A stretch of DNA of 64,000 nt, from the NCBI GenBank assembly GCA_949358305.1, contig OX442314.1, forward strand, positions 32,364,001 through 32,428,000, given 5' to 3'. Shown piece by piece: positions 41,516 to 64,000 of this stretch (within the stretch, counting starts at the first letter, position 1; every line of letters begins with the position of its first letter). The notes beneath the pieces were generated by a model. It had not been told where the DNA came from. It ran no database searches and saw only the letters and a program-made list of their open reading frames with translations. A program made the position numbers and the translations under genes. The stretch is from Strigamia acuminata. Taxonomy: Eukaryota.

Positions 41516-41517
41516 GG

Positions 41518-42000: not shown

Positions 42001-42004
42001 CTTG

Positions 42005-43788: not shown

Positions 43789-43797
43789 ATTCCACCA

Positions 43798-44133
43798 ATG
43801 AAACGAGTAAGACGTCACGCCAATGTGCTCCGGGCCATTCCCGATTTAAATAAGAGACAAATCAAGGATTTTCTCAAACATTCTAACGATGATTTCTGTA
43901 AAACCATCTGTGAAATTTGTTTAAACATTATAAAAGGTACAATTAAGTTAGGAGCAAATCAGAAACAATCACTTTATCGAAAGAGAAGGTTGTTAAGAAA
44001 ATTGGCCACTCCTACATCTTCATTCAAACAAAGACGGAACTTGGTCATTCAAACTGGTGGATTTTTACCGCAACTACTCGCCCCAATTATTGGAGCATTA
44101 GTAGGTAAACTAATTAGTAAACAAAATGGCTAG
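43798..44133 (+). CDS. Small basic Maverick protein of unknown function
   Basis: CEICLNIIKG, basic middle region, QTGGFLP followed by a hydrophobic tail. Confidence 0.75.
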   Translation: MKRVRRHANVLRAIPDLNKRQIKDFLKHSNDDFCKTICEICLNIIKGTIKLGANQKQSLYRKRRLLRKLATPTSSFKQRRNLVIQTGGFLPQLLAPIIGALVGKLISKQNG

Positions 44134-45016
44134 GAAAATGGTTTTAGTACCGCAGGAAATGATGTCATCTTTACAATATTCGAAAAAGAACTATGATGAT
44201 ATTGATCCGCAATATCAAAAATTGCAAAAGATTGAATCGTCAATAGAGGAAATTTTCAATGATGCAAACTTGAATGATGAAATGAAAGCTAAACTTATAT
44301 CGACACTTCAATCGCAATTTGGAAACTTTAAACAAAAGCTAATTAAACAATTAAATGCACCAAAAACTGTTACTATATCACCTCCAACTCAATCCGCATC
44401 TCCACCTCAATCACCACCACCAATTGTTTCGCACTTATCCACATCTCAATCGCCATTTGTTCTTCAACCATTGGATAAAATAATGTTGAATAAAATGTCA
44501 AAAGATCAAAAGAAACAAGCTATTGCGTTAATGGAAGTTATGAATTTGAATCCAAGGTTGAAATGGAGCAATCTATCGGAAATGATTATAGATGGAGTAA
44601 AAATTCCAAATACAACCAAAGCTGATCTTATAAACTATACCATAAGAAACCGCCCGAAGCAAAATGTAATTCCGATTGGTCAGTCAGAGTATATTAAAAT
44701 TTTGATTGATTCAAATGTACCAAAAGAATACATTATAAACAAGAATTTAAGAAAGGAATTAATTAGACCGATGAGCACTTCAACTCCCACAATTACTAGG
44801 GACATTCATAGAGAGTCATTGAGTGGAAATGACTCCATCATCAATAATCAAACACTATCAGATCAAGATCAAGAGCTGTCAGACTTAGAGAACACTTGGG
44901 CACATTACGGAACACCAAACAAATCTTTAAGATTTCAACGAGATCAAGACGAGAGTTTATTCAAATATAAAACACCAAGTTCCGGTTCACAAAAAAGAAA
45001 AAAAATAAAGAAATAA
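44126..45016 (+). CDS. Maverick protein of unknown function
   Basis: 296-aa ORF between the ATPase cluster and integrase; coiled-coil N-terminus, C-terminal basic NLS. Confidence 0.75.
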   Translation: MARKMVLVPQEMMSSLQYSKKNYDDIDPQYQKLQKIESSIEEIFNDANLNDEMKAKLISTLQSQFGNFKQKLIKQLNAPKTVTISPPTQSASPPQSPPPIVSHLSTSQSPFVLQPLDKIMLNKMSKDQKKQAIALMEVMNLNPRLKWSNLSEMIIDGVKIPNTTKADLINYTIRNRPKQNVIPIGQSEYIKILIDSNVPKEYIINKNLRKELIRPMSTSTPTITRDIHRESLSGNDSIINNQTLSDQDQELSDLENTWAHYGTPNKSLRFQRDQDESLFKYKTPSSGSQKRKKIKK

Positions 45017-45056
45017 ACAGTATAACTAGGAGCATAGAACAAAGTTAGAAAAACAT

Positions 45057-46151
45057 ATGGCAGAGCAACAATTGAAAGATATCTACTTTAATCCAAGAAA
45101 TCCTGCCGGATTTAGTAGTCGAGATAAATTGTTTCATGCTGCACGTAATCGAGGGATACAAGTTACCAGAAAAGAAATTCAAGATTGGTTACAAGGATTA
45201 GATTCTTATACTTTACATAAACCAGTCCGATACAAGTTTCAACGCTCCAAGACTATTGTACCATCCATTAATTACCAATGGCAATCGGATTTGGTTGAAG
45301 TTGGAAACATAGCAAAGGAAAATGATGGAAATAGATATTTAATGACCGTCATTGATGTATTTTCACGATATGCGTATATTGAAGCATTACCAACAAAGTC
45401 TGCGCAACATATTATAAAAGCTTTTAAAACAATTCTAAAACGTGCCAAGACTAAACCCCTCTACCTGCAGACGGATAAGGGAAAAGAATACTTAAACAAA
45501 GCATTTCAGGAATTCTTACAGAAAAATAACATCAAACATTTTACTAGTGAAAATGATGATATTAAATGTTCACTTTGTGAAAGATTGAATCGAACCATAA
45601 AGCAGAAAATGTGGACTTATTTCACATATACCGGCAGACATCGATATATTGATCAACTGCAAACATTTATAGATTCATATAATCATAGCGTTCATCGAAC
45701 ATTAGGAATGAAACCTGTTGATGTTACGAAAGAGAAAGAACCGGCAGTGTTTTACCACTTATATGGTGATACAATAAATAAAAGACATAAGAAATTTAAG
45801 TTTAATATTGGTGATGGTGTTAGAATATCAAAATCTAAAGTGGTTTTCCGAAAGGGATACAGGGGAAGCTATTCGCATCAAATTTATTATATTATCAATC
45901 GATTAATCCGACCACCAGAAGTTGTCTATATGCTTAAAGATTACAATGATGAACCTTTACTCGGTACATTTTATGAATTTGAGTTGCAGAAAATTAATAA
46001 ACCCAAGGATGCGGAGTATGCTGTAGAAACAGTATTAAAGTCTAAAGGCAAAGGTGCGAATAAATTATATTTTGTAAAGTGGATGGGTTATGGAGATGAA
46101 TTTAATTCCTGGATTCCCGCTGATGACTTACGAGACAACCCACCATTATAA
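45057..46151 (+). CDS. int: Retroviral-like DDE integrase with C-terminal chromodomain
   Basis: WQSDL, IDVFSR, QTDKGKEY, CERLNRTIK; chromodomain YAVETVL...YFVKWMGY...NSWIP. Confidence 0.95.
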   Translation: MAEQQLKDIYFNPRNPAGFSSRDKLFHAARNRGIQVTRKEIQDWLQGLDSYTLHKPVRYKFQRSKTIVPSINYQWQSDLVEVGNIAKENDGNRYLMTVIDVFSRYAYIEALPTKSAQHIIKAFKTILKRAKTKPLYLQTDKGKEYLNKAFQEFLQKNNIKHFTSENDDIKCSLCERLNRTIKQKMWTYFTYTGRHRYIDQLQTFIDSYNHSVHRTLGMKPVDVTKEKEPAVFYHLYGDTINKRHKKFKFNIGDGVRISKSKVVFRKGYRGSYSHQIYYIINRLIRPPEVVYMLKDYNDEPLLGTFYEFELQKINKPKDAEYAVETVLKSKGKGANKLYFVKWMGYGDEFNSWIPADDLRDNPPL

Positions 46152-46207
46152 TTTGTATACACACATAAATAATAAAGATATATTTCGATCATTGCATATG
46201 CACTTGT

Positions 46208-46594
46208 TTATTTAACAATAGTTACATTCGAATGGAGAAAAGAGATTGCTCGAGTTAATCTAATCCATTGATACCAATTTAAATTAATTCCTTTGATGGA
46301 TGGACCAGCTCTGCTAAACTGTCTGATATCAAATATTACATCATCTCCACGTTTGCAAATATTTAGTTGTTTTCCATTTCCTAGATCAAAAGTGGAATTG
46401 CATCCATTGGATACAGGCAACATTTTCACTACATCCACAGTTGGTTGGATTAAGGTTGGAGGAGAGTACATCAGAATCATGATTTGTAGAATAACGATAC
46501 AACATCCAACAACAGAGAAACTTCCAGTCGTAATCCATAATTTATGATTTTCAAATAAGAGCATCAGGTTTTTCTGTAATCCTGCTCTGTCCAT
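46208..46594 (-). CDS. PC4-like domain protein with an N-terminal hydrophobic helix
   Basis: FDLGNGKQLNI...VIFDIRQF...PSIKGINLNWYQWIRL (PC4 pattern) preceded by FSVVGCCIVILQIMILMY. Confidence 0.7.
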   Translation of the reverse strand: MDRAGLQKNLMLLFENHKLWITTGSFSVVGCCIVILQIMILMYSPPTLIQPTVDVVKMLPVSNGCNSTFDLGNGKQLNICKRGDDVIFDIRQFSRAGPSIKGINLNWYQWIRLTRAISFLHSNVTIVK

Positions 46595-46774
46595 GGTTTG
46601 TGAAAGAATGACACGATAATATATATAATAATGGTTTTATTTTATAAAAATAATAATAATAATAATAATAATTTCATTTACAAAATAAATTACATGATAA
46701 GATAATGATATAATAATAATAAAAATATGTAACAGTTTTGTTTACAAAATAAATAAATAAATAAATAACACTTT

Positions 46775-49700
46775 TTACAAAATAATATTGTAATGCCCAT
46801 GAGCTAGAGTCGTTACACCATCACTCAAAATGTACCTTTTATCATCTCCAGCAGACAAAGCAATTTTCTTTTGCAAAATTGTATATAATTCGTGATCGAA
46901 AGAGCGAATTTGATTTGATGAACGTGCGTTTTCTATTTTGTTGAATAGACACTCTTTGTAGTCTTTGTGGCGAAGTTGATTTCGCACACTTCGAGGTACA
47001 CCTTTTGCTGTCTTTTTTTCTTGATCTTTTGTTTTAAACGAATACATTTTACATCGAAGTCCGAGAAATTCCTGTATGCATTTCCCGGACATTTCGTCTT
47101 TAAACTTTCCAATTACCTTTTTATTCTTTGTGCTGTATAGGGAGTGTGTGGAAGGATAATCTGAAGTGTCGAATTTTTCTAAATCTTTTTTCATGTCTGC
47201 ATAAATATCATCTGTTTCGATATTATACGTTAAACTATCCGTATCAGTAAAAAGCAACCTGGCTTTGTTCCCATATGTTTTTTTGATATGATTATAATGA
47301 AAATCATACATAAGGACTTTGCTAAGTTCTAGAATGCAAAAGCCCACGTATATGGGTCTATTTAATAGGATATTTCTTTTCTTTAAATGTACACCTACAA
47401 GATCTTCATTGAAAATCTTGAACTCGTGAAAAGTTGGTGAATTTAATAATTTAGTCACTCGCTCTGGATTTTGCACCAACCTCACATCAACACGTTTCCT
47501 GACGGATTCGAGCGACTTCCCAAAAACACTATTATTCATCAATTTGAAGAAGTCCTTTTGAAAACTATTGGTTGCTTGTTTTCGCAACTCTGTATTTAAG
47601 CCAATGTACTTTGCAAGCCAATCAGATTGTTCAAATTCCAGAATTTTATGAATTTTCGTGACTTTCATTCCCAATTTCAAATACAATTGGAGGTTTTGGT
47701 AGTGGATAATATATTTTGTTTTGTTAGCAAGGTTAGGAACTAATTTGGGAGATGGGTGATGTTTTTGTTCTAGTAGGGTAAGGTGTTCGAGACTGTAGGG
47801 TGATAACATGTTTTCAGTTACTGTTAGTCGTTCGGGAGCAAGAGGATAATCGTTATGGGAATCATGGAGTTCTTTGGGATATTCTAAATCTACTTCCAAA
47901 ATATACCCCTTTGTGCTGGTTTCACTAATGCTTAACACATCAAAATCATCGGTGGGCGGTATCCATTTGAAATTATGAGTTGGTAAATATTGGTTCATTG
48001 CCCAGCCGTACAAGTTATTCGCATCGAGATAGATGATGTGATTGGATGGAAGGTCCTCTTTATAATCATCTAAATCTTTGTGATTGGCTTTAGCAAATCG
48101 ATGGCTAATCATTGATATACCACCGCGAATACCATTTTCAATAAAAACATGCATAAGCGGATCCGTTAACAGTTCTAATTTGACATCCGTTAGTTTCAGA
48201 CATGCCCCCCACGAGAGACCGGGTGTTGTGAAATAATTACAACAATCCAATTTATAAGTCTCTAAACAAATCGATCGAAAATTTTCAAAGACGTCAGCTA
48301 GCAGCAAAACGTCAGTCAAAACATAAAGGTCTTGATAAACACCGAGATTTTGGATATTGAATTTATCCCACACTTTCTTTGCATGAATATAGTCAGATTC
48401 GGATACACTTTGCTCACTTAGAGTACTGTAAAATTCGGATATGGGAGGAAGTTGGACTTCGTTGAATTTGATCCAAGAGTCCATGTACTCATATGGAAAA
48501 ATACCTTTCCGTAATAACAATCCGATTTCATCAGGATTGAAATGTTGATTCATTATTCGGAATTGGTTTGGATCACTTTTGAATAAATTAGCTACTAATG
48601 ATTCTAATGATGCATTCATAAATTGCAGACTATCGAGAAATCGAAGATTTCCGAGTGAAAAAGTAATATATCGTTGCATGTTGGTTGGAATACAGCTTAT
48701 TTCACGATCTTTATACTTTCCAATTCCCTGCATTAATAAATGTGAATCATAATTTTTTAAGTTATGAAACACAACAGGAATTTGTTTAGATGTTCTGCGA
48801 TACATCAGATTACAAAAATTATGAGCAGGGCCACGGAACTTGCCAGTAGCATGATCATGGTCCCTTACTTTCTTTTCATTTTTTAAAAATGTTTTATTAC
48901 AAATGTGACAAGATGTAGCACTTTCCATAAACAATTTTTCTTCATTCGATAAATCCATTGGAAGATTTAAAGCCATAAGCTTTTCCAACTCTACTTCCAA
49001 TTTAGTAATATGATCAAGAAAATGATCAACTGCATTTTCACCTCGATATACCGATGGAGGTTGGTGAAGTTTACCTTCTGTATTGATAACAGCATAAGCA
49101 TAACCCGATGGTACGTGCTTGGACACTTTTTGCACTTTGCTTGTCTCATCTTTTTCAACATTTTTAACGAGCAGTGACTCAAAATCCGCATATATAACAA
49201 ATGGGACTTTAAATTGTTTATGGAAATCATTAAAGTGCATCCATTTTGTTTCATCGGTGGGGTATTTAACTTTTTGAAGCCCGTAGGTTGAGCAATACTC
49301 CAAGTGATCTTTTAGTATCCGTTCTGACGAACATCTATGCAGACAATATTTACAATAGTGAGCTAATTCATTGTGATGTGTTAAGGAATGTAACAGTTTA
49401 TTTATATTTTTAATCCAACAATAATGTTGGGTTTGATCATTAGCAAAAAGTAACAAATTTATTTGGGTTTTATGTTCCAATTTGCTAATGTATAGGGGAA
49501 ACACTTCTTTTTCGAAACCGAACACATGAACACTAATAGAATTCATGGTTTCAAACTTGGGGATTTGTTGAAGAGTCATTGGGAATGAAAGTCCGGTTAA
49601 ATCTAAAGTGTTTCGGTACTTGGTATAATGTGAAACACGTTCAGGGTGGGAAGGTGCAGGATGCAGAGCAGCTAAAACACTCCAGAGAAAACACAAAGAA

Positions 49701-51199
49701 TCTTGATTTTGTACATTTATTATTGCTTTTTTGTCTGCTAAAAATTTGGGGAGTGCGATGTAAGATCTTCCAGCCAATGGGCGATATCTACCAATATTCA
49801 CATGCATCTCTACCACCGCTTCAAATACCCAACCACTACCATCTCGTTGAAATTCGGCGCAAGAACGTTTAATTTTCTCGTATGCCTCCAATAATTGGTT
49901 CTCGAGATCCGATTCAACAAGCGCAATATAGCAAATGCTTCGAAAACATGCAATGGTTTCCGTATCACCACTCTGTGATGATCGAGTGAAATGTATTTTA
50001 ACGGCGATATAATATTTTACCGCTTTCTTTTTAATCAATTGGAAGTTTAAAATCCGTTTCACTCGAGTGTGGTGTTGAATGAAAAAATGATTTAAATCAC
50101 CACAATCATCACCGGGAATTTTATACGTGTTGACGTTTCCCTCTAATGCGTCAACACAAGGATCATCGCAGGGTAGTGGTTGTGGATGTGGAACGGCGGG
50201 TAAAGGAAGAATGTGAACTTGCATGTGTTTAAGTAAATTATTATTTGAAGAAAAAGACTTTTTGCAAACATTGCAAGTAACTGTCTCTTTGCTGCGATTG
50301 TGAATATTTTTAACATGTCGCAGCATGTCATCTTTACGCTTAAACATATTTGAACATATTCCACACTTGAATGTGCTTTTGGAAAGAGTATGTAAATGAA
50401 GAATATGTCGTTTCAAAGTAGAATTACAAGAAAAATTTTTTTTGCAGTACTCACATGAATGTACTTTCTGTCCACCGCCAATTTGTTGCATTAAAGTCAT
50501 AGGAGATGGGGGATTGACGATGCGGCTTGTTCCTGCTTGCTGCAAATTTGGTTGGTAGTGGTACACAGGAACTGAAGACTCACACGATATCGATAGATTG
50601 CACGATTGAGATGAGGCAGGTTCAGATTGATTGTCGCAGGTTGGAGTTGGCACGAGTTGAGATTGGATGACGTAGGATGGAGATGGTACATGTTGAGACG
50701 GAATGATGATGGTGGGTGGTGAGAGTGGATAAATTGGAGAATGATTATAAATCCATGGAGAATCATTGTATCCATTTTCTTCATCCGGTAGAGGATTGGG
50801 TGTGTTAACTTGAGGAAATAGAGATTCTTCAATTTCTGTAAGCATCTCTTCAAATTCACAAATATTATGTTGCACCACTTGATTATGGATTTGATGGTTA
50901 ATCATGAGAGGAACGGGAGACTCACATGATGTCAATGGATTGCAAGATTGAGATGATGCAGGTTGAGATTGGAAGACGCAGGTTGGAGATTGCACGTGTT
51001 GAGAGTGGTTGATGATGGTAGGCGATGAGAGTGGATAAATCGGAGAATGATTGTAAATCCAACATGGAGAATCATTGGATCCATTTTCTTCATCATCAAC
51101 ATCTAGCAGTGGATTAGGCGTGTTTATAGGAGGAAAGAGAGATTCTTCAATCTCCATAAACAACTCTTCAAATTCAGACTGAATGTGGTTAAATTCCAT
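46775..51199 (-). CDS. polB: Protein-primed family B DNA polymerase with N-terminal repeats, three C2H2 fingers and an endonuclease VII-like insert
   Basis: YADFES (ExoI), FHNLKNYD (ExoII), DANNLYG, KLMNNSVFGK, TDTDS; DHDH..G..RG..H..CN insert; TATA and CCAAT positions favour ATG 51199 over 51271. Confidence 0.96.
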   Translation of the reverse strand: MEFNHIQSEFEELFMEIEESLFPPINTPNPLLDVDDEENGSNDSPCWIYNHSPIYPLSSPTIINHSQHVQSPTCVFQSQPASSQSCNPLTSCESPVPLMINHQIHNQVVQHNICEFEEMLTEIEESLFPQVNTPNPLPDEENGYNDSPWIYNHSPIYPLSPPTIIIPSQHVPSPSYVIQSQLVPTPTCDNQSEPASSQSCNLSISCESSVPVYHYQPNLQQAGTSRIVNPPSPMTLMQQIGGGQKVHSCEYCKKNFSCNSTLKRHILHLHTLSKSTFKCGICSNMFKRKDDMLRHVKNIHNRSKETVTCNVCKKSFSSNNNLLKHMQVHILPLPAVPHPQPLPCDDPCVDALEGNVNTYKIPGDDCGDLNHFFIQHHTRVKRILNFQLIKKKAVKYYIAVKIHFTRSSQSGDTETIACFRSICYIALVESDLENQLLEAYEKIKRSCAEFQRDGSGWVFEAVVEMHVNIGRYRPLAGRSYIALPKFLADKKAIINVQNQDSLCFLWSVLAALHPAPSHPERVSHYTKYRNTLDLTGLSFPMTLQQIPKFETMNSISVHVFGFEKEVFPLYISKLEHKTQINLLLFANDQTQHYCWIKNINKLLHSLTHHNELAHYCKYCLHRCSSERILKDHLEYCSTYGLQKVKYPTDETKWMHFNDFHKQFKVPFVIYADFESLLVKNVEKDETSKVQKVSKHVPSGYAYAVINTEGKLHQPPSVYRGENAVDHFLDHITKLEVELEKLMALNLPMDLSNEEKLFMESATSCHICNKTFLKNEKKVRDHDHATGKFRGPAHNFCNLMYRRTSKQIPVVFHNLKNYDSHLLMQGIGKYKDREISCIPTNMQRYITFSLGNLRFLDSLQFMNASLESLVANLFKSDPNQFRIMNQHFNPDEIGLLLRKGIFPYEYMDSWIKFNEVQLPPISEFYSTLSEQSVSESDYIHAKKVWDKFNIQNLGVYQDLYVLTDVLLLADVFENFRSICLETYKLDCCNYFTTPGLSWGACLKLTDVKLELLTDPLMHVFIENGIRGGISMISHRFAKANHKDLDDYKEDLPSNHIIYLDANNLYGWAMNQYLPTHNFKWIPPTDDFDVLSISETSTKGYILEVDLEYPKELHDSHNDYPLAPERLTVTENMLSPYSLEHLTLLEQKHHPSPKLVPNLANKTKYIIHYQNLQLYLKLGMKVTKIHKILEFEQSDWLAKYIGLNTELRKQATNSFQKDFFKLMNNSVFGKSLESVRKRVDVRLVQNPERVTKLLNSPTFHEFKIFNEDLVGVHLKKRNILLNRPIYVGFCILELSKVLMYDFHYNHIKKTYGNKARLLFTDTDSLTYNIETDDIYADMKKDLEKFDTSDYPSTHSLYSTKNKKVIGKFKDEMSGKCIQEFLGLRCKMYSFKTKDQEKKTAKGVPRSVRNQLRHKDYKECLFNKIENARSSNQIRSFDHELYTILQKKIALSAGDDKRYILSDGVTTLAHGHYNIIL

Positions 51200-51301
51200 G
51201 ATACAAACAGAACCTAGCACTTGCAAGAAGTGAAGAGAAGAGAGAAGGGAATTGCAAGTATATATAGCCATTACTAGTTACTCATTGGTTAAGATAACTA
51301 C

Positions 51302-51737
51302 CCAATAATATCCCTCCTTTGGTTAAAAGTAGCCTAAGGATCCTTTGAAAATTTGGGAAAAACAACAACAAGGTACTTAAGTAAAGAAAAACAAGGGTCC
51401 TTTGAAAATTTGGGAAAAACAACAACAAGGTACTTAAGTAAAGAAAAACAAGGGTCCTTTGGAAAAAACAACAACAAGGTACTTAAGTAAAGAAAAACAT
51501 TAACAAATAATAGCCTAGGGCACATTGATTGAATGATAAGACTGATTGATTGAAGCAATTAGTCACCCCCACTTAGCTCTCCCCTTATCTCCCCCTCTCC
51601 TTATCTCCCCCTCCTCTTATCTCCCCCTCCCCTTATCTTCCCCTCCCCTTATCTCCCCCCCACTTAACCCTCACCACCCCCTCCCCCACCCCCCTAACCG
51701 TCAACCGCTGGCCCAGGATCCCCATAAACCCACTACT
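51302..51737 (-). repeat. Polinton right TIR (436 bp)
   Basis: Reverse complement of 36203-36639. Confidence 0.95.
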
Positions 51738-52833
51738 GATTCTTATTTGAATAGAAAGTTTTGAGGAGGTAAAGATCTAATCATCATTCTAGTTATATTT
51801 GTCGACCGACTGCCATGAATGTGTGACTGGTAAGGTCTTCTCCATGGCAGCCTGGGGACTGGTTACCGTGGGGTGGGAAGCATACTCACTTAAATAAGAC
51901 AAGAAACTCCAGATTGTTGGTTGTTGGCCTTTATTAGTTTCGTTGTTTAGGGGTTGGAGACTCCCATCTACCCACACGTGGGTGTTGTTGCGAAAGCACT
52001 TTTTTCTAGTTCTAATTCTAACAGTACACACTTGTTTTACATTTTAAAATGAATCATTATTTCAGCTTGCCCAGTATTCTTTCTCATCAATTGAAAACAA
52101 AGTGTTGATGTTTGTCATCAAGGAAACACGTGGAACTCAAAATCTAAAGCATGATCTAGATTTGCCCGTATTACAGGATCTCATCATATGGAGAGAGAAT
52201 AAAGTTTACTTATTCACATATGCTCAACACAGTAATGTATGAGTCAATAGTTAAAGCATTATTAACAGTATGTTTGCAGAATGTTCATTTTGTTCTTAAT
52301 TAACACCGTTTATTTCAACACATCTAAAAGTACATGGTGTATCCAAATCTGCTCGTTTAAAACGATACAGGGTCATTAATTGATGACACCAAAATGAAAA
52401 CCACCGTTACGGATTAAAGATTGGTGCAATTTTTGTCTACAAAGATTAGCATTCACTATATTTGATTTTTAAAATATATTAACTACATATAATTTAAAAT
52501 AAGGAAGTTTATTTATACTGTTCATATTTTTTAATCTGATATTACAGAATTTTAGCTTGCAGTTATTGAAACATAAGTCTGATGGTAACATTTTTCAAAC
52601 AACCAACTTGGGGATAAATTGTGCGGAACAACAAAAATGTCAATTTGAAAAGATTTCTCAAACACCAGTGATTCTGAAAAAACAAAATTATACTGTAGCC
52701 CAGGTAAAGCATGCTACTACAATTTAAATAGTAATTATAAATAATATTGCATGGCAGATTTATGGGGACAACTAATAGGGAGGAGGTAAATCTGAATGGT
52801 GCAAGTGTGTCACGAAAGGTCCAGTGTAAATCT

Positions 52834-53905
52834 TGCGGCGATCCGGGTTTTTACTTAATAAATCGAGGAGACTTATCAAGCAATCGTCGTAGAGATGCCG
52901 TACAGGACTTCTACTCTGTGGCCAAATGTTTGTCTAGGGGAATGATTTTACACAGAGTAAAGGAAAAATTAGATAGTTTTAATTAGTTCTAAATATACAC
53001 GGATATGATGCAAAAGAATAATGTTTGGGGTCGATCTGGCTTCTTCTTCACTAATATAAACTCACAGTTGACCGTTGGTTCCAAGATGGCGTCGACGGCG
53101 TCGTGTGAGCGCGGAATTTTAGCGGAGTAAACTCAACGCTAAAATACGCCTCTAAATATACTAAAATCCTCGCGGAGCAAGCTCAACACGAGAATACGTC
53201 TCACACACAGTGAAGGTGATTATTACGGAGCAAGCTCGACGTAACAATCAGTCTTTACACAGATCGCTTTGTGGAGTTAAACTCGACACAAAGCCTTCAA
53301 ATTGACAGAGCAAGCTCAATGTCAATTCCACACAGAAATGGCTTAAATTACGCGTAGTAATTCAAGCAGAAAGGCGCTATTCCGTACAGTTGGCACGGAC
53401 CAGCAATGAATCTCAACTCTTCCAGATATCACAGATCACACTTAGCAGGGTTTGGCATAAGTTTGACACAGATGTGAATGGTTTGGAAGCAGAATCAAGA
53501 ATGTCGGAAGAGTGGGCCAAAACCGTTTGGCTCACTCCTAAATCTGCTCAGTAAAGCTGCACAGATGACGAGTTGCACAACGATCACACACGGCCGCCTT
53601 CGGGTCGTGTGCAACAATTGAGCCGGGCACGCGCGAGGGGAAGGGATGCTCCGCCCAGGCACACGCCTAGCAGCATCATCAAAGCAATGCACGCTGCAGC
53701 GCGATTGGTTGACGCTGTTGCTGGGCCAAAACTTGCTGCAAAACACAATATTATTTGGGTAATATGGTGTCTTGTTTTATATTTGATTAATATATATTTT
53801 ATTTCAATTTACATTGAAACAAAACATATAAGCTTGTTGAATATGTTTATACGACAATTTGGAAATATGGTGCGTACTCAAATAGGAATATTTGAGGTCA
53901 CCACA
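52834..53905 (-). repeat. Gypsy 3' LTR (1072 bp)
   Basis: Minus strand begins TGTGGTGACC right after PPT AAAAGGGGGGGAAG and ends GATCGCCGCA where block-B homology resumes. Confidence 0.88.
53116..53327 (-). other. Array of five bulged RNA hairpins within the LTR
   Basis: Five different 8-11 bp lower stems each enclose UY-bulge-GAG-loop-CUC; mismatches resolve as G-U pairs on the minus strand. Confidence 0.8.
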
Positions 53906-54077
53906 CTTCCCCCCCTTTTAAGAAAGAATCCTATTCTTTTCCAAAAGAGACAGGTAAGTATGAAAATAAATACACAAGGTTTCAAAGTAAAATGGAACAG
54001 GATATATATTTATTCTTTTTTATTACAATATAAAAATAAAAAAGGAATTATTTTTAATGGACGGGTATGTTCCCTAA

Positions 54078-56915
54078 TTATTTAGGCAACATGTCCGTCG
54101 AATGATCATTTGGATCCTTGTGCTCTGTGACGGTGCACAAAGATCGGCCGGCGTTCGGTCCTGACTGGAAGCCAGTGTTGATGTGAAGCCACACTTGCTT
54201 AATGTGTCTCACACCATCCCTTCGTCCAAACCCCATTTCGAAATACTCTTGCGGGTCTTTCGGCGTGATCCTGGCAAAAACGAGACGTTGATGGAGGATC
54301 CACGGCTGTTGCTCCTTGATGTGATTCTCCAACCACGCGAGGACTCGGTTGCAGAGATCCTCGTTGTTCTGGAGAATCGTCTTCGTTGCACTCGTGATGT
54401 AGCAGAAGGCGTATACCGAGCGCAAGCGTTGATAGGCGGTGAGGTAGGTGGTCATACTCAATCCCCTATCTCTCGGCGGCGAATCCTTTGGCGGTGGCGG
54501 TGGTGGCGGCGACTTTTTGCAGATCGAGAGGGATCTGGATCTGCGCGAAGCCGGGGCGCGCGTCTTTGGTCTGGCACCGCTGGCCACAGGCACGACGAAC
54601 TCGCGATCGTCGCTGTCGAGCGACTCCATTGGAGACGAGATGTTGCTACTCGGTGCCTCGGTTGCACGGGAAACACTCGACGTTGCCGTGATGGCAGCGT
54701 GGAGTGGAGCTGCGGATGACGGTGGTGCGCCAGCGGGACGTGCGGTAGCTCGTTCCGCTGCGCGTCGCTGCTTCAGCGTAGCCCATTCCTGCCGTAGTCG
54801 AATGGCGGATCCAGCCGGAGTTTCGCCAGTCGCCTCGGCTTGTTGCGTCAATTCGGCGAGCATCGTTGGAGGATCGGGGCGAACTGACTCCCAATCGTCC
54901 AGCAAGGCTCATGGAAGCCCTAACGGCACGGTCCACAATCGGGTGGCGGCCGCCAGAGCCATTCGTAGGTCAGGAAAGACTCCTTGGAACAGGATTCTAA
55001 GTAGTCCTTCCGACAGCTTCCTGTGCATCTTCTGCAACATTCGTTGCAGTTGCTTGTCGGACTTGCACGACTCCAACTCTCGGGCAAGCCATTGCCATTC
55101 CTTCTCACCTTCGCGGATCTGAGCGAGCTGGTATTCGTCCAGATGCGCGAGGTACATCGTTTGGGCTGTCTCGGGAAACGATGAGAATCGCCTCCAGAGA
55201 TCAGCGCACTCCTGTGCGGGAAATGGTTCCGGAGAGATGTGTGATCCCTCAAAACGAATGACCGATGTCACTTGTGGCACGGGCACTGATGGGTCTGGTC
55301 GCATGTCGCTGGTGACTGGACGGCAAGCGAACGGCAAAGAGGTGTTGACGTCTCCTTGACCGGCTTGCAATGCGGCGATGCGTCGATCTTCTTTCGCTAT
55401 CTCGTCCGACCAGTCAATCCGGCCGGAGGAGGAAGCGCTCAGCTGTGAAGCGTTGGATCTTTCTTCACGCGACGAGAGTGAACTCCTCGTGGAAGATTGG
55501 CGCGATTGCACTCGAGGTCGGCTTCGGGATGTGGGTCTCGACACGGACTTCGAATGTCTTTTTGGTGGCGTTGACTCGCGTCGATGATGCGAGCGATGAC
55601 GAGTCTTTTGAAGTGGAGGTAACCCTCCAATGGCGCCTTCCCCCGACGACTGTGTTGGGGAGGAGCGACGGCCACTGTAGGGCGATCTCGATGATCGTGA
55701 CCTCGACGTGGAGCGCGGTGGCACCACGTGGATGGTGGATGCGATTGGTACCCGTGGCTCGGGCTCTGGGTACGGGTTCGGCACGAAGTCAGCATGGAAA
55801 CATCCGCCCATGGCTAGTTGATGCATCTCCGATTGGCATGTCGGCACCCAACGTCTCCTTCCGTCCGTGGTTGGCCGGAAAGATTCGTGGTAGAGGCGCA
55901 CAACCTCGGCCTTGGTTTGATCAAGACGTTGGAAAATGTCCTCCAAAATCTGTCGACGCTCCCACGCAGGAGCGTTGAAATAACGGCGATGGTCTCGCGT
56001 TTCTTGAGCGATCACTACGAAGGCGAAGTCGAGCAACACGTTTCGTAGTGGTCCGAAGGTGTCGCGCTTCATTGCCCACTCGAGGGCGTCGCGATGACCG
56101 AATCCATCGATTAAATAGGCGATTCGAAACTTCGTTCCCCATCGCTTGTTTAAGGCTCTGGAGAATTTGTGGCGGGCCGCCCAAAACGTCAGTCGTCCTT
56201 TAGACTTTATTATTTCTGGCGGCAAAGCGTGTCGCCAGACGCCAGGATCGGTCGGAACATCGGGGTGCAGCTCGAGATGCGTCTCCCGAAGCTGGATGAT
56301 CTGTAAAATATTCGAAGAAATAATTAAAATCCATTTTTTCGTGTAAAATAATTATTTTCCGAATTTTCAGTGAATAAAATCACAGTGAGATTTCATTCGA
56401 CAGTTTAGATTCGTTAAATTTTTCAAAATGTTTGAAAAATCGTGAAAAACGTTGTTTCCGACGGCTATGTTTCAATGTTGGAGCGTTACCGTAGCAACGC
56501 CTCAAAAATGAGACACAGCGCCATCTGATGATAAAAATGGCGGCGCCTTCTTGCGAAGGCGTTACCAACGAACTTTTCGCTTTTTCCGAGTGAAAATGCA
56601 CTTTTAATTACTTTTCATGACTGAAAGGTAATTTTATTTTAAATTATTTACCCGTTCGTGTCTCTGTGCACGAGTTTTGCCGTTTGGATCGGCGAATAGG
56701 CCTCCTCGTAGTCGGGGCTGAGACGGCGTGATTGGCAAACGGGCAGCAGCGTCGGCCAGAGCGGCTTGAGCTTCGGCGGACGCTTCGGCGGATTCTTCGG
56801 TGACATCCACGGATGCATTCGAAGTGTTTGCGGAACCAAGCAACGTCGAATTTGTTTCTAATTCGAGGCTGTTGGCGCCGGCTTCGCTTCCTTCTTTCGG
56901 TTCCTCTTCTTCCAT
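54078..56915 (-). CDS. Spliced accessory gene of the Gypsy (Arg/Ser-rich, not env), with one in-frame TGA
   Basis: Exon 56915-56652 (88 codons), GT-AG intron 56651-56301, exon from 56300 in frame with ORF 56225-54909, TGA 54911-54909, same frame continues to 54078. Confidence 0.75.
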
Positions 56916-57125
56916 TTGAACGACTAATCCAAATGGAAAAGAAAAACGAAAATTAATTTATTAGTTTTTCCTTGGAAAATTCCAAAGAAAAAACTACTTA
57001 CAATTGAAGAATCCCGTTGAAATAATCCAGTTGTTTCGCTTTTGGTTTTTTGGAGATGAGCACTTAGCACACGTGTGAGATCGAAGTGAACTCAGACGCG
57101 AAGTGATCCGTTCAAATACCGGAAG

Positions 57126-60100
57126 TTACGTTTGGGTAACGTCGTTGTTAGCGACGTCATCCAATCTTATCGTTTGATTGGTTTGCGTATGGCTTGGGGA
57201 ATTGCTCCTTACGTCATACGGCTGATCCTTGGATCTCGAGGTTATCGAGGGGAGAAGACACATGTTGTTTTTTCCTCTCGGTTTACGAGTCCGAAGATTA
57301 TATCTCTTTGTCGGCGAGGGATTTATTGTATTTAAATCGCCGTCTTCATTGTCATCGGAGACTGAGTCAGATGAGTCTTTTATTTCAGATGTTTTTTGTT
57401 TCTTTTCTAAAAACACCTTTTTATTTAATTTTTTAGCAATTTCAAGCTTTTTGAAACTGTCACGAAGTTCAACGTCGTTATTCACGAGGTCTGACTCCAT
57501 TTGTGGTTTGGATGAATTATCGACAGGTATTTTCTTTAATTCATCGTCATCTAACGTATTAATTATATTTTCAGTCTTTTGACCGACTTCTTCGCCTTCT
57601 AACCATACTTCCTGATCGAAACTCGGGAAATACGGAGTTAATTCCGACGAATGGACAGCTGGAAATATTTCGTTATTCTCTAGCTTTCTCAATTCTACGG
57701 ATCCTCCCTGTAATACTTTGGTTATTACATAAGGTCCTGTTCTTTTATCAGCGATGCCAGCTGCAATGCCGCGGGCAGCGCTCGACAAAACATGAGAATC
57801 TCTCCAAACTAAATCGTTTAATTTAAAATTGGAGAACTTCGCACCTTCTTTTTTAAGATTAACTCGTCTACGCAAATCTAACACGTGTGACATCATGTGT
57901 TGATATGTTTCGGCGATAACGGCTTCTAATTTTTGCACGTATAAATGTGGGTTTTTTGGATCTACGACCAAAATTCCTTCAGGTATTCTTGGATCCCAAG
58001 GTACTCTGAGTTTGCGAAAAAAGTTAAGAAATGCGGGAGAGAAGTCTCTTCCTCTCGTCACCGTAGTTCTCAAACTAAATGCAAATTCACGCAAATATTC
58101 GTCCCATTTGGAATGAACAGATGAATAAATTGCAACCAAATATTTGATGTCACGGTTAACCCTTTCAACCGGGTTAGCTTGTGGGTGTTGGAACCATCTT
58201 GAACTTTTCACAAAATTTTTTAAAGACTTGGGCACGAAATTGCGGGCCGTTGTCAGAAATAATTTTGCGAGGAAATCCCATGCTCATGGAAAGGTGATAA
58301 ATGCAATTTGCTACTTTTCCTGCAGTGGGGTTACACATTGGATATAATTCTGGCCAATGAGTCGCCACGTCAAGTATGACTAAAATGTGTGTGTTGTTTT
58401 TTTGTGTCCGAGGTTTCGGGCCAGTTAAATCAACACTTAGGCAGTCAAATGGGCTGTAAGGACCCATTTGCGCTGCTTCAATTTGTCCTTTCGTTCGAGG
58501 CTTGCAAGCTTGACAACGCTCGCAATGTCGAATGAATCTCGTGATGTCAGATTTCATGCCTTTCCAGGTATAAATTCGGCGTGCTCGATAAAGAGTCCTT
58601 GCAATTCCTGGGTGGCCAGAAAGTGGGTGGCCATGCATCAGCCAAATAATTTTATACTTCAATGTCTGAGGTACAAAAACTTTGAGTGCTCTCCCATCCT
58701 CCCCCAATTCATCAGACATTGTGGGATGAAATTGCATTAATAAGTCATCTTCAATTAAGAAGGTGGTTGCGTGTTTTCTATATTGTTTCCTCTGGAGTCG
58801 CGTTGTGACGTCAGGCGGAAATTGATTACAATTTAAAAAATTACGCATTAATTGGCAAACTTTATCTTCTTTTTGGGCCTTGATTATGTCTTCCCTTGTG
58901 GGGGGTTCACAATCAAGACGCTCTATAATTTTGGCGACAAATGCTTTTATTAAAACATTTGACGAAGGAATTTGAAATTTCCTTGAAATTTGCGCTCTTA
59001 TGACATCATCTGATTCTTCAGAGGGGTCATAAATTTTAGTCCAATAGTTGACGAATTCGTGATCTTCCTTTTCCTCTAATGTGGAGACAGGAAGCTCATG
59101 GAATTTTCCCATTTTCCAATTTCGTTGTGGTGATGGACAATAAGATAATAATTCGTCATTATCTCCATCATCTTCAGGATTTTCCGGTTTATCAATCGGT
59201 GATCTGGATAAAGCATCCGCTAAAACATTTAGTGGACCTTTAATATATTGTATTTCGAAAGAGTAGCGCATCAGCTCCATTTGCCAACGCGCTAGCCTTC
59301 CGGCAGGTTCGTCTAACTGCATCAACCATTTTAGTGCTTGATGGTCAGTCCTAACTATGAATGTGGTAAATTCCAAATAATGTCGGAATTTACATAATGC
59401 CCAGATTACCGCAAGGCATTCTAATTCTGTGGCGCTGTAATTTATCTCAGCAGGTTGCAAACTTCTGCTGGCATAAACACAAGGCACTTCAATATTTTGA
59501 TCATCGATTTCCCTCATTTGCATAAGCGCGGCGCCTAGTCCTTTTCTGCTGGCGTCGGTATGCACAATAAATGGTTCTGTCAAATCAGGCATGGCCATTG
59601 TTTCTGCATTCGTTAGAGCATCTTTTATTTGATCAAAAGCTTCTTGATGAATTTCTGACCAAATAAATTCCACATCCTTTTTGAGTAAAGGACGTAGAGG
59701 TTCCGTCATGACTGCTAGATTCTTGAGTAATCGGTGAAAAAAGTTCACCATTCCCAAAAATCTTTGCAACTCTTTCAAATTTGAAGGAGCTGGCATTTCT
59801 TTAATGGCGGCGACTTTTTTAGGGTCGACACTAACTCCTTGAACACTTAACTTGTAACCAAGGAAAGTTAATTCTTTTCTGCCAAATTTCGATTTTTCTG
59901 GATGAACATGAAGATTTGCATTTTCAAGTTTACCTAGAATTTCTTCCAGATGCATCATGTGTTCTTCAAAATTTTTTGATATTATAATTATATCATCGAG
60001 GTATGCCCATGCGAATTTTCGATAGGCGTCCCCCAAAATCTTTTCTATCAACTTTTGAAAAGTTGACGGCGCATTTACGAGATCAAAGGGCATGACTCGA

Positions 60101-61587
60101 AATTGTAGTCGACCCAAAGGGCTCCAAAACGCAGTTTTAGCACGGTCGTTCGGATGAACCTCTATCTGCCAATAGCCTTTTGACAAATCTATCGTTGTGA
60201 CCCATTCAAATCTTCCGAGTTCTCGCAAGATTTCCTCAATGCTGGGCATTTGAGGAGGGTCGTATAATGTATGTGCATTGAGTGGTCTAAAATCAATGCA
60301 GAGTCTCGGATCACAATCCGGACGCATCACTAGAACTATTCGCATTCCATAGTCTCCAGTGGCTTGCTCAACATACCCATTATCCAACATATCTTGACAG
60401 ATTTGACGGATAATTTCACGTTTTTGTGGATTTACGCTTTTAAACGGAACTCTAATAGGAACTTTAGTGTCCAGTTTAATTTCATGTCTAACGAGGTGTG
60501 TTCTACCTGGTCGGCGTGATAAAATCTTTTCATGTTTCTTTAATACTCTTTCAAGCATTAAATTATTTTCCATCGACAAATTAGCGTCGCTAACAAGTCT
60601 TTGTACTACATTTTCTTCATCGGCAACTTTAGCTTGACATGCAGTGGCGGAACCAGCTTTCATGTGATTTGCTTTAATAAAGTCGCGTTTCATTACTTCT
60701 TCGGGTGGATCAAGGAACTCTTGATAACGATCAAGAATCGCTTGAGGAACAAAAGGTAAATCTTCTTTCAAAGTCTTAACAAAATTCCAAGACATGGTCT
60801 TAGGATTTGGTTGAATATTGAGTCCATTCATGAAATCACATCCTAATAAAATAATAGGATATTTATTTCTTAAAATTATGAATGGATGACTTAACATCCC
60901 GTGTGTCCACGCAAAAGAAAGTAGGAGAGTTCCTTCGGGGACTACATCTTCTGAAGCAGTCGTAACTCTCACATCCGGTCCAATTGGTCGAATTTCATCT
61001 TCCAGTTTCAGCGAAATTACTACGGAGTAGGCCATGAAGCTTCGATTAGCTCCAGAGTCTAACATCCCTGTTATCATACCGTTTGCCGTCTGCAATCGAA
61101 TCGTCGGCAAATCATTGCTGTTTGGTATGTCCGCGTACTTGCACTTAAAACGTCGCGGTGGCTTAATTTCTATCGGCGAATCCAATGGTAATTCGTCCAA
61201 TAAATCATTAGTGACTAGCGTTGTAGCCATTAATTTTTCAATACAATCGTCAAGACCAGGTAAATCAATTTTATCTGACCTTTCAACAATTTCAGGTGTT
61301 GGCCTAGCTTTTCCATCTAGCAAAGTAACAGCATCTTTTATTTTAGATTCCCAATCAACTTTTAATTGTTGAACTTTTTCTTTAAAAAATTCTTCAGTGA
61401 TGTTTTCATTTTGCAGCACAAGCCTTAAACTGGAAACATCAATTTTTGGAAATATTAAATTATTTTCGATTTCTAATTTAATCTGAGTATTCAAAAATTC
61501 ATCTAAAATTTGAGATGGTGTTAGTTCATTTTCCGAGGCGGTAGGCGTCGCATCCACTAGACCGTCTGGATGCGCGCTTACAAGATT
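57126..61587 (-). pseudogene. pol: Gypsy pol (protease, RT, RNase H, integrase) with a frameshift in integrase
   Basis: LDSGA, YLDD, TDAS..E..TDH, H-H-C-C, DLTGP, SDNGPQF; HPQANPVER and GPY lie in another frame from about 58200. Confidence 0.92.
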
Positions 61588-62714
61588 TTAGAAGTTCGCC
61601 GATTGATTTCATCGATTTCTCGAACTCTTCTATAATCTTGTCTTTGCTCGATTTCCTTTCAGGACATTCTTTAGCCCAATGTCCCAATTTTTTGCAGATG
61701 TTACACGGGTCAGTAGCAGGTGATTTCGCGACTTTTGGCGAAGGCGAACTTGAACGTTTGGCTTCGTCCTTTTTAGGGGTCGGTGACTTCGATCTACTGA
61801 GCGCGTCCGTCTTTGGTGAACCAAAAGTAACGTTTTTAGGCGCCATCTTTGGTCCAAATTTTCTTGCTACTGCGTTATTACGGGCTAATAATGCAGCTGC
61901 CGCTTCACTTTCTGGCTCCGAGTCAGATTTTTCTGGTTCAGAAGCAGTTTCCATTTCGGTCACTTCAGCTAAGTGAGCTTTAGGGGTTGGATGAGGATTT
62001 TTTCCATCCGATCCCTTTTTCGATTCCTTGGCAGTCTCTGCAAAAAAATCTCCTCGTTTTGGGGGTTGCAAAAGAGGGGTATTAGCAAAACGTATATCTT
62101 TTGCCAACTCCTTTCTCCGTTGCTGTCGCTTAGCGTACGCAACTTTTTCATCAGCTGGTAAGTAAGCTTTGTAATTTTCGTCAATCCTTATCTGATTGGC
62201 TCGCATAAATTTGGCTAATTCCGCGAAACCACCCGGATAAGGTGCTCGTACAGAAAGTAGAACATTTTTTGAATAATCGGTCAATCCACGACGGAATTAA
62301 CGATCAATGGCTGCGTCTCCCATCGTATAAGGGAGAGTTACCAATAAATCTTCAGTCCTTCTTAAATAAGAGCGAAGACTTTCGCCTTTATTTTGAGAAA
62401 GATTATCCCACATTTGTAATAAGTCTTCACTTGACTCTCCATACTCAGTCATGAATTCTTCTACAAAGTAATTCCAATTTTGAAATTGTTTAGAATAAAA
62501 CCATTTCTCAGCTCGATCTATAAGAGCTTTTGGTACTACTCTTTTCAAAGCAGTGTGACATGCAATGCCATTCAACCTTGAAATTCGTAAAACTTCATCT
62601 AAAAGAGTGGATCCAGCTTCCCATTCTCCATCGAATAAAGCGGGTTTAATGTGATCCCATCTAATAGTTCTTTCATCAACTAGATCGTGAGTCCAGTTGT
62701 TGGCAGTGTATTGT
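61526..62714 (-). pseudogene. gag: Gypsy gag, interrupted
   Basis: Capsid-like A.KWF...W..F...F and Q..GES...Y; CNICKKLGHWAKEC knuckle; in-frame TAA at 62299-62297; cut at 62714. Confidence 0.85.
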
Positions 62715-64000
62715 TGTGAGGTCATACGTTGACCTCACGTTGCGCGCGACCTGGCGCCGAGGCGAACACCTGCCACGCGGCGCACCTGTCGGTGTTGATT
62801 GATGACGTCGGGACGGGACAGCCAATGGAAGACCTCGTTTTATTTTTATTTTCGGAAAATCGATTTGTTTACCTCTGAATTTGTAAAAGCCGAATAAAGT
62901 TAGTTTTTGTGCACATTTTGAACCTAGACAGTCGCAAATTCCTTGTCGCTTGCTCTCTCATCGCTGACATGGCGCAGTCGACAGCTTAGGACCCGGCGGA
63001 CGCGTGAACGTCGTCGCTGCGTGAGAGAGCTCGTTGGATTTTCGTTGGATTTTCGAGCCGCAACCGAAAATACGAAAATTGCCGTGCGTGGGCGTGAGGA
63101 AGGAAAACTCGGGACATAAAATGGCGGATATGAAAGGTGTGTTAACTTCGATTTGCGAGCCGGTTTTGGACCTTTTAACATGCGAAAACATTCGCGACGA
63201 GTGTTTGTTACGGGGAATCGACGTAACCAACTGCAAAAAGAAGAGCGAATTTTTGGCCACAATCTTGGCGGACAATGTGGCAAAAGATACAGCCAAGGTC
63301 AACCCCGGGTCAACCCAGTCGGCCATTGTGGCGACTGCGGCGGGACTCGCCGGACAGATCAAAGTGCAGCACGAGGTGGACACGACGAAGGGAGTGCCCG
63401 TGTTTAAGGGAAAACGTGACGAGAACGTTGAACATTTCATCGAGTGCGTCGAGCGTGCGGCCACGTTGGGAAAATGGACCGAGCACGCAAAAATTGCGGT
63501 GGCAAACGGACAATTGAAGGAGGAAGCTCTGTATTGGTATGACATTTTTGGGAAAAAACTCGTTTTGTGGTCGGAGTGGGTGGCGTCAATTAGGGACTAT
63601 TTTTTGGACGTCGACACCTATGACAGGTGGAGGCAGCGAATCGCCGCAAGAAAGCAGCTGGAGAACGAGTCCCTCGCCACATATTTTGCCGCAAAAATCG
63701 CGTTGATCGAGACAACAAGGAAGGCGTTCAGTTTCTCGAAGGACGACACGATAAATGTCACAATAGAGGGAGTTCGCGATTTGCACACTCGTGATTTATT
63801 TCGCATGTCAAAATTTGATTCTTTTATCGAATTAATTAGGAAGGGACGCGAGATTGACCGGAACAGAGAGGCCATCGAGTCACCACCGAGGACGACACCA
63901 AAAGAGACCGCGAAGCCAAATATCGAGGCCCGGACAAGGACACCACGCGATGAAACGTCATATAAAAAGGGCATGGACATGTCAAAAATGCAATGTTGGC
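62715..64000 (+). mobile_element. Second Gypsy (5' LTR, PBS, gag start) nested in opposite orientation in the first element's gag
   Basis: TG..CA LTR 62715-62969 with AATAAA; PBS TGGCGCAGTCGACAG 62970-62984. Confidence 0.85.
63121..64000 (+). CDS. gag: Gypsy Gag, open to the window end (not in the ORF track)
   Basis: MADMK...VPVFKGKRDENVEHFIECVE...LKEEALYWY...RKQLENESLATYF..., ending MQCW (likely start of a zinc knuckle). Confidence 0.88.
   Translation, partial: MADMKGVLTSICEPVLDLLTCENIRDECLLRGIDVTNCKKKSEFLATILADNVAKDTAKVNPGSTQSAIVATAAGLAGQIKVQHEVDTTKGVPVFKGKRDENVEHFIECVERAATLGKWTEHAKIAVANGQLKEEALYWYDIFGKKLVLWSEWVASIRDYFLDVDTYDRWRQRIAARKQLENESLATYFAAKIALIETTRKAFSFSKDDTINVTIEGVRDLHTRDLFRMSKFDSFIELIRKGREIDRNREAIESPPRTTPKETAKPNIEARTRTPRDETSYKKGMDMSKMQCW

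What the first reader, a model, noticed from the sequence alone, without database searches (positions are those of the whole stretch)
54078..57125. Intron-containing, non-env accessory gene between pol and the 3' LTR
Seen: three separate ORF-track entries join into one ~830-codon frame through a phase-0 GT-AG intron (56651-56301) and one TGA (54911-54909). A second candidate intron lies in the 5' UTR (GTAAGT 57001 to TTAG 56924). The protein has no signal peptide or TM helix, but has an acidic N-terminus, a long RS/Arg-rich tract (RSTSRSRSSRSP, RHRSHHRRES, SRPTSRSRPR) and helical blocks. Inference: retained sense-strand introns imply regulated splicing or export of genomic RNA, as in complex retroviruses, and this protein is the obvious hairpin-binding candidate. 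The TGA may be CGA decay or readthrough.
Basis: partly seen in the sequence, partly recalled or inferred. Interest (0 to 1): 0.78.

Follow-up and report, generated by a model that had tools for sequence, protein, structure and literature searches.

The report
Spliced accessory gene in Gypsy retrotransposon
A multi-copy jumping gene carries a real extra gene whose intron is precisely missing in a few copies, and its arginine/serine-rich protein, with no relative in the databases searched, likely acts on a row of five HIV-TAR-shaped RNA hairpins in the element's terminal repeat, as the regulators of complex retroviruses do.

Summary
The gene is real. Exon 1 (56915-56652, 88 codons), a 351-nt GT-AG intron and exon 2 (56300-54078) give 828 residues with one TGA. 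Contigs of public runs cover it throughout, alongside pol. Nearly all depth lacks the stop, so it is decay of this copy, not readthrough. The exact exon 1-exon 2 junction occurs in two different intron-less forms, so the intron is spliced, yet most copies keep it. Listed differences are mostly silent (23 of 39) and listed indels avoid the exons. The 5' UTR intron is unconfirmed. The protein is not Env and has no homologue in 1.84 billion representatives; structure prediction failed. The LTR holds five hairpins with varying but fully paired stems and a fixed pyrimidine bulge before GAG/CUC, the arginine-binding layout of HIV TAR and 7SK. Best reading (0.35): a Tat/Rev/CERV-like regulator that binds these hairpins so that intron-keeping genomic RNA is made or exported. 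Binding is untested; no relative was found to test co-occurrence, and no RNA run was listed. Extra spliced ORFs behind pol are known; this pairing was not met in my searches.

The parts
52917..53905 (-). 3' LTR, 989 nt, TGT..ACA
   Evidence: follows the polypurine tract; the 5' LTR is outside the window, so the right boundary rests on the terminal ACA
53113..53331 (-). Array of five bulged hairpins: 8-11 bp lower stem, UU/UC bulge, GAG..CUC upper stem, 3-4 nt U-rich loop (bulges at 53319, 53286, 53239, 53186, 53136)
   Evidence: fold z -4.4; the only such units with stem of 6 or more in the window; 44 of 44 cells paired, 6 of 11 pairs change on both sides in 4 of the 5 units
53906..53919 (-). 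Polypurine tract
   Evidence: read directly
54078..56300 (-). Coding exon 2 of the accessory gene (740 codons, aa 89-828)
   Evidence: covered in runs X1-X3
54909..54911 (-). In-frame TGA, private to this copy
   Evidence: depth without the stop 64492 of 64733 (X1), 21600 of 21726 (X2), 3008.7 of 3008.7 (X3)
55449..55712 (-). Arg/Ser-rich tract (aa 285-372), candidate RNA-binding and phosphorylation region
   Evidence: composition; function inferred
56301..56651 (-). Phase-0 GT-AG intron, 351 nt; holds an X-box-like (56498-56485) and a YY1-like (56542-56534) motif
   Evidence: junction 56300-56652 in X1; second diverged junction in X1 and X2; motifs (names recalled)
56652..56915 (-). Coding exon 1 (88 codons, acidic N-terminus)
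   Evidence: no other ATG between the pol stop and 56915
56924..57001 (-). Candidate 78-nt 5' UTR intron, unconfirmed
   Evidence: splice motifs; no junction among 8 joints
57119..57216 (-). Candidate internal promoter: two CRE-like and one ETS-like motif at the end of pol
   Evidence: picked after the fact, names recalled, weak
57126..61587 (-). pol (PR-RT-RNase H-IN), broken by a frameshift in integrase near 58200
   Evidence: Pfam; ORFs; translation
61526..62734 (-). gag (Retrotrans_gag, zf-CCHC), with a stop at 62299-62297 and cut at its 5' end by a nested element

Best explanation
This Gypsy family carries a spliced third gene, kept under selection, whose Arg/Ser-rich protein likely binds the five TAR-shaped hairpins of the LTR and would thereby let full-length RNA that keeps the intron be elongated or exported for gag-pol translation and copying. 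Shown: the gene, the spliceable intron, its retention in most copies, the private stop, and the hairpin array with its fixed bulge. Inferred: the message starts at an internal promoter at the end of pol (or is spliced from the 5' LTR) and is fully spliced, so the protein is made first; the hairpins lie in R (between TATAAAA 53781 and ATTAAA 52983) and so head each LTR transcript; arginines of the RS tract enter the bulges; the helical blocks oligomerise or recruit host factors; serine phosphorylation switches it. I favour export or protection of unspliced RNA (Rev/CERV-like) slightly over elongation (Tat-like), because the loops differ from TAR's and five sites suit multimer loading.
For: Intron is spliceable: exact 351-nt joint with GT..AG ends in X1 (depth 506, one contig, shorter side 27 nt) and a diverged intron-less form in X1 and X2 whose listed 30 letters map to 56271-56300 with 3 differences. 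Most depth keeps the intron. Selection: 23 of 39 listed exon differences silent against 0.33 expected for transitions (p 0.0008), 11 of 16 among those that segregate; 6 of 6 indel rows in 55900-57400 are non-coding. Hairpins: stems vary but pair fully, bulge and GAG/CUC are fixed; 3 G-U pairs on the sense strand; TAR uses a bulge U on the A27-U38 pair with arginines on G26 and G28, and 7SK uses 2-nt pyrimidine bulges alike (PMC6189040 passages). Precedent in a Gypsy-type element: CERV of Cer1, from a spliced mRNA, is needed for export of genomic RNA and is switched by serine phosphorylation (PMC10309623 sections 9, 15).
Against: No binding, localisation or expression data. No homologue anywhere, so gene and hairpins could not be shown to travel together; 0 of 189 loci with the two-unit core motif have the stem layout. 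No K-K/R-x-K/R NLS and no cysteine finger; arginine density is modest (at most 4 or so per 10 aa) beside Tat. Loops are 3-4 nt and U-rich, not TAR's 6-nt loop. Both strands fold equally well against shuffles (z -4.4 and -4.95). Transcription start and poly(A) site are not mapped. The intron may be kept by weak splicing or for its motifs. A 3' ORF assumed to be Tat-like in snakehead retrovirus proved nearly dispensable (PMC12193657 abstract).
Confidence: 0.35

Rival explanations
1. The protein is a functional accessory factor that works on DNA or chromatin (foamy-virus Tas-like transactivator, or VANC-like family-specific anti-silencing factor); the hairpins serve Gag (packaging, dimerisation) or a host protein.
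For: Layout resembles foamy viruses (accessory ORFs before the 3' LTR, internal promoter; PMC7828637 figure legend); promoter-like motifs at 57216-57119 and in the intron; acidic N-terminus suits an activation domain; VANC acts through repeated motifs of its own element (PMC6719617 passage); Gag has a zinc knuckle.
Against: The repeats keep pairing and a one-sided bulge rather than sequence, which points to RNA; no DNA-binding family passes (BEN only E 0.17); an RS tract fits RNA work better (recalled).
Confidence: 0.3
2. The protein is a general RNA chaperone or condensate component of the element's particles or germ-line granules, binding RNA without sequence specificity through its RS tract.
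For: Large low-complexity share (R, S, A, P are the four commonest residues); 618 of 740 residues under pLDDT 50 (single sequence, so weak); RS tracts of viral nucleocapsid proteins (recalled).
Against: Separate spliced gene rather than part of Gag; a fixed bulge motif repeated five times calls for a specific reader.
Confidence: 0.2
3. It is a captured host or other-transposon gene that rides along with little use to the element.
For: Exons are 57% GC (GC3 0.50-0.60) against 39% (GC3 0.32) in pol; it has an intron and perhaps its own promoter, like a cellular gene.
Against: No match to any protein or to other DNA of the window; silent excess and non-coding indels among copies; present throughout the family's depth.
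Confidence: 0.1
4. It is a diverged envelope or cell-to-cell fusion protein.
For: It sits where env sits and has an acceptor just before its ATG.
Against: No hydrophobic stretch (maximum 1.25), acidic N-terminus, 9 cysteines in 828 aa; no Pfam family.
Confidence: 0.02

Closest known systems
CERV of the C. elegans Gypsy/Ty3-type element Cer1 (PMC10309623; abstract and sections 6, 9, 15 read)
   Same: Non-env accessory protein of an LTR retrotransposon made from a spliced mRNA whose splice sites stay in genomic RNA; helical domains with flexible linkers; orphan sequence; S/T-P sites.
   Different: CERV is 517 aa, shares exons and frame with gag and has a Cys loop and a G-protein-like domain; this gene is 828 aa, lies wholly behind pol, has an RS tract and no CxxC. 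No sequence match in any search. CERV's function is shown, this one's is not; the sections read name no RNA element for CERV.
Lentiviral Tat-TAR and cellular HEXIM-7SK arginine-sandwich motifs (PMC6189040, passages read)
   Same: Hairpin with a pyrimidine bulge starting with U, followed by G-C, A-U, G-C pairs; sits in an LTR; an Arg-rich protein is encoded by a spliced message of the same element.
   Different: Five tandem units, 2-nt bulge, 3-4 nt U-rich loop; Rfam gives no TAR match; the protein is far larger than Tat (size recalled) and lacks its Cys-rich domain; no binding shown.
Extra ORFs behind pol: bdelloid ORF3s (PMC5408684) and plant eORF-3'F (PMC6317226); passages read
   Same: Sense ORF between pol and the 3' LTR, not env, family-specific, often orphan; ORF3s are said to be expressed from spliced messages.
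   Different: The passages read show no intron inside the extra ORF ('intron' 0 hits in PMC5408684) and no hairpin array; those ORFs are enzymes, TM/coiled-coil or unknown.
Foamy virus tas/bel-2 region (PMC7828637, figure legend read)
   Same: Accessory ORFs before the 3' LTR with an internal promoter.
   Different: Retrovirus with env; internal promoter here is only suggested by motifs; Tas binds DNA (recalled).

Membership tests
Ty3/Gypsy LTR retrotransposon | gag, then PR-RT-RNase H-IN order, PPT and LTR | tested here: met
   5' LTR and PBS lie outside the window
Extra sense ORF behind pol (ORF3 / eORF-3'F) | Long sense ORF between pol and 3' LTR, part of the family and under selection | tested here: met
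Errantivirus / env-bearing Gypsy | Signal peptide, fusion peptide and C-terminal TM anchor, or an Env family match | tested here: not met
   hydropathy maximum 1.25, acidic N-terminus; no Pfam match
CERV (Cer1) | Exons shared with gag; Cys-loop M domain | tested here: not met
   gene starts behind pol; no CxxC in exon 2; no hit
CERV (Cer1) | H, M and G folds | tested here: inconclusive
   models too poor (pLDDT 39.7 and 48.7); best Z 5.5
Rev/Rex/CERV-like export factor (function) | Made from a spliced message whose intron stays in genomic RNA | tested here: met
   (from contigs, not from RNA reads)
Rev/Rex/CERV-like export factor (function) | Needed for cytoplasmic unspliced RNA; shuttles or sits on nuclear genomic RNA | not testable with these tools
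   four loose NES-like patterns, no basic NLS pattern
TAR-type arginine-sandwich RNA | U-led pyrimidine bulge followed by G-C, A-U, G-C | tested here: met
   5 of 5 units against PMC6189040; secondary structure only
TAR-type arginine-sandwich RNA | Six-base apical loop and match to the TAR family model | tested here: not met
   loops of 3-4 nt; none of 6 Rfam matches at E up to 5 is TAR or reaches its cut-off
TAR-type arginine-sandwich RNA | At the 5' end of the nascent transcript and bound by the element's Arg-rich protein | not testable with these tools
   start site unmapped; no RNA run

The most novel reading that the evidence does not exclude
An invertebrate Gypsy retrotransposon has independently evolved a complex-retrovirus control circuit: an early, spliced, internally promoted Arg/Ser-rich regulator that reads a five-fold array of TAR/7SK-type bulged hairpins in the LTR to license full-length, intron-keeping RNA.
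Probability: 0.27. Interest if true: 0.85.

Novelty: new variant of a known kind. Interest (0 to 1): 0.62.

Why it matters
Retroelements copy themselves through RNA and should lose introns; here a spliceable intron is kept in most copies while a few precise intron-less copies exist, a natural record of how tightly genomic RNA escapes splicing. Among the papers read, CERV is the only Rev-like protein shown for an LTR retrotransposon, and those sections name no RNA target. This element offers both halves in one sequence: an orphan Arg/Ser-rich protein and a sharply defined repeated RNA motif with the TAR/7SK arginine-binding layout. One binding assay would test whether Tat/Rev-type control arose again outside retroviruses.

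Tried and rejected
Readthrough of the TGA: rejected. Protein homologues: none for the 463-aa piece (8000 candidates, lengths 254-811), for exon-2 residues 355-740 (7996 candidates, lengths 407-1295), for exon 2 against 1.84 billion representatives (0 at E 0.001), in PDB sequences (best E 0.47), Pfam (best E 0.057), PHROGs, viral contigs or metagenome contigs. Exon 1 was searched only in Pfam and PHROGs. The protein atlas gave no answer. Structure: single-sequence models of exon 2 (pLDDT 39.7) and of a 159-aa block (48.7) gave no fold match; this shows nothing about the fold. No RNA holder listed. X6 and X4 laid nothing, no proof of absence. X2 joint 56782-57092 has GT..AG ends but a poor donor and no pyrimidine tract: taken as a deletion. 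No genome is held, so no full-length sister copy, tree or true dN/dS. The sigma-70 scan does not apply. Lineage within Gypsy not fixed: nearest RT-RNase H 29-48% identical, mostly 43-47%. Look-ups of earlier findings by sequence and place found nothing.

Full report
Setting. The finding lies in a Ty3/Gypsy element on the minus strand: gag 62734-61526, pol 61587-57126 with protease, RT, RNase H and integrase in Gypsy order, a polypurine tract at 53919-53906 and a 989-nt LTR 53905-52917. This copy is decayed: a stop in gag, a frameshift in integrase, and a second element nested in gag, so the 5' LTR is outside the window. The RT-RNase H region has no close relative: the best 120 hits are 29-48% identical, and the named ones are mostly arthropods. 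An invertebrate host is an inference. No genome is held and the window has no second copy.

The observation. ATG 56915, exon 1 of 88 codons, a 351-nt phase-0 GT-AG intron, exon 2 of 740 codons with one TGA (54911-54909): 828 residues. The intron is 33% GC with stops in all frames, the exons 57% GC. Shuffled exon-2 bases give at least 9 stops in 2000 trials. The N-terminus is acidic, aa 285-372 hold 18 R and 26 S, and no 19-residue window exceeds hydropathy 1.25.

Other copies. Three of 6 listed runs hold the stretch, from 2 studies; none is on record as RNA. X1-X3 behave like DNA: intron and exons are covered alike, the same rare deletions recur in all three, and records reach 29-48 kb. One may be the source of the window. 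All 30 bins of 52700-58400 are covered in X1-X3; in X3 single contigs have depth 2200-3000 in the gene and 3366 in pol, against 31-51 for most rare joints. The tool warns that depth is no copy number, but tens of copies carrying the gene is the plain reading. At 54911 nearly all depth lacks the stop (64492 of 64733, 21600 of 21726, 3008.7 of 3008.7), so the TGA is damage to this copy and readthrough is not needed.

The intron is spliced. A joint from 56300 to 56652 skips exactly the 351 bases with GT..AG ends in X1 (one contig, depth 506, shorter side 27, letters between not known). Independently, X1 and X2 each have a contig that leaves the window at 56652 for 75-78 letters, of which the 30 listed map to 56271-56300 with 3 differences (0 matches in 100 shuffles): a second, diverged intron-less form. 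X3 shows neither among the rows listed (15 loose ends hidden). If the runs are DNA these are copies reverse-transcribed from spliced RNA; if RNA, they are splice junctions. Either way the sites are used. They are a small minority (506 against about 16,000 for a single pol contig in X1), so most copies came from RNA that kept the intron, or intron-less copies spread poorly. The 5' UTR intron has good motifs but is in none of the 8 joints listed; it stays unconfirmed, and its absence is a point against fully spliced mRNA as the source of the intron-less copies.

Selection. Of the differences listed within the exons (from 40 of 333 rows and 40 of 72, stop row dropped), 23 of 39 are silent against 0.33 expected for random transitions (p 0.0008); 11 of 16 among those segregating and 12 of 23 among those near-private to this copy. 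A first look at 22 rows gave 10 silent, not clearly above expectation. The rows are a best-supported subset and three adjacent pairs were judged singly. All 6 indel rows of 55900-57400 are non-coding (5 events, p about 0.02; AT-rich runs inflate this). Of 12 indel rows shown (of 43), the only two in exons cancel each other.

The protein is an orphan. Nothing or in a full HMMER pass of exon 2 over 1,835,955,588 representatives. Single-sequence models are too poor to read; they suggest three helical blocks between disordered tracts, and fold searches gave nothing usable. It is not Env. Its GC content differs sharply from pol (GC3 0.50-0.60 against 0.32), which suggests a separate origin.

How it is expressed (inferred). 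No ATG lies between the pol stop and 56915. CRE-like and ETS-like motifs sit at 57216-57119, an X-box-like and a YY1-like motif in the intron (names recalled, chosen after the fact; the ETS-like word alone is at chance level). This fits an internal promoter with a short first exon, the layout drawn for foamy viruses (PMC7828637 legend), and gives a second reason to keep the intron. Splicing from the LTR donor-like GTGAGT (53065) is the alternative.

The hairpins. Five units in 53331-53113 fold at z -4.4 (the other strand -4.95). Each has an 8-11 bp lower stem, a UU or UC bulge on the 5' side, GAG paired with CUC, and a 3-4 nt loop; no other such unit with a stem of 6 or more is in the window. 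In 4 of the 5 units (one left out for its longer loop) 44 of 44 cells pair and 6 of 11 pairs change on both sides, 1 of 500 shuffles reaching the score (the structure was taken from these sequences, so this is generous). Three G-U pairs favour the sense strand weakly. In HIV TAR a bulge U caps the A27-U38 pair and Tat arginines contact G26 and G28; 7SK uses 2-nt pyrimidine bulges the same way (PMC6189040 passages). All five units have that layout but not TAR's loop, and Rfam finds no family. They lie between a TATA-like box (53781) and ATTAAA (52983), so probably in R. No similar array turned up in 189 loci.

Mechanism. Best reading (0.35): the spliced gene makes an Arg/Ser-rich regulator that loads on the hairpin array and lets intron-keeping genomic RNA be completed or exported. 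Shown: gene, splicing, retention, selection, hairpin layout. Inferred: promoter, position in R, binding, effect. Rivals: DNA or chromatin factor with hairpins serving Gag or a host protein (0.3), unspecific RNA chaperone (0.2), passenger (0.1), Env (0.02). Against over-reading: Ogre keeps an intron by partial splicing (PMC6317226 passage), and the snakehead retrovirus 3' ORF was not Tat after all (PMC12193657 abstract).

Comparison and novelty. Extra non-env ORFs behind pol are well known in bdelloids and plants (PMC5408684, PMC6317226 passages), and two unchecked notes of this scan describe separately promoted or spliced extra genes in other Gypsy families. CERV is a shown export factor from a spliced Cer1 mRNA (PMC10309623 abstract and sections 6, 9, 15), but differs in position and sequence: this works perhaps like CERV, it is not a CERV. 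Passages of three insect or metazoan Gypsy surveys (PMC3286476, PMC13486581, PMC13524379) name only Env and sORF2 as extra proteins. Eight searches (listings only) showed no Gypsy with an intron inside an extra ORF together with TAR-type LTR hairpins; none of the 20 listed of 1,573 papers holds 'TAR-like'. That is not proof of absence; Repbase and subscription journals were not searched and no supplements were read. Verdict: a real, selected, spliced orphan gene, a new variant of a known kind, with a testable link to an unusual RNA array. Interest 0.62.

Noticed in passing
window ~62715-64000 +: A second, opposite-strand LTR element is nested in gag: short LTR-like stretch to about 62972, PBS-like TGGCGCAG, then a gag-like ORF running off the window (read by eye; no Pfam hit).
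   Followed up: partly
window 24497-31369 +: Intact-looking Copia element (LTRs 98.7% alike) whose 1614-aa polyprotein has a methyl-CpG-binding (MBD) domain between integrase and RT (E 4.7e-09).
   Followed up: no
window 36203-51737: 15.5-kb element with 446-nt, 99% inverted termini and many ORFs, one with C2H2 fingers and an endonuclease VII match; Polinton-like by layout (label recalled, not tested).
   Followed up: no
window 53094-53300 and 53195-53300: Rare LTR variants in runs X1-X3 lack 205 or 104 bases inside the hairpin array, so the number of units varies between copies.
   Followed up: no
window 53803-53781: AATAAA lies just upstream of TATA-like boxes near the LTR start, with a second signal ATTAAA at 52983; the order recalls the HTLV LTR (recalled), where a folded R region brings the signal to the cleavage site.
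   Followed up: no
window 57010-57048: A variant subfamily in X1-X3 differs just upstream of the GTAAGT donor (loose ends); the X2 loose end keeps the window's letters up to the donor.
   Followed up: partly
window 54204-54209: Many copies differ by a one-base gain and a one-base loss five bases apart, which leaves the frame unchanged.
   Followed up: partly
L075:1-5021: Unrelated Gypsy-type polyprotein with integrase before RT (Gmr1-like order, name recalled).
   Followed up: no
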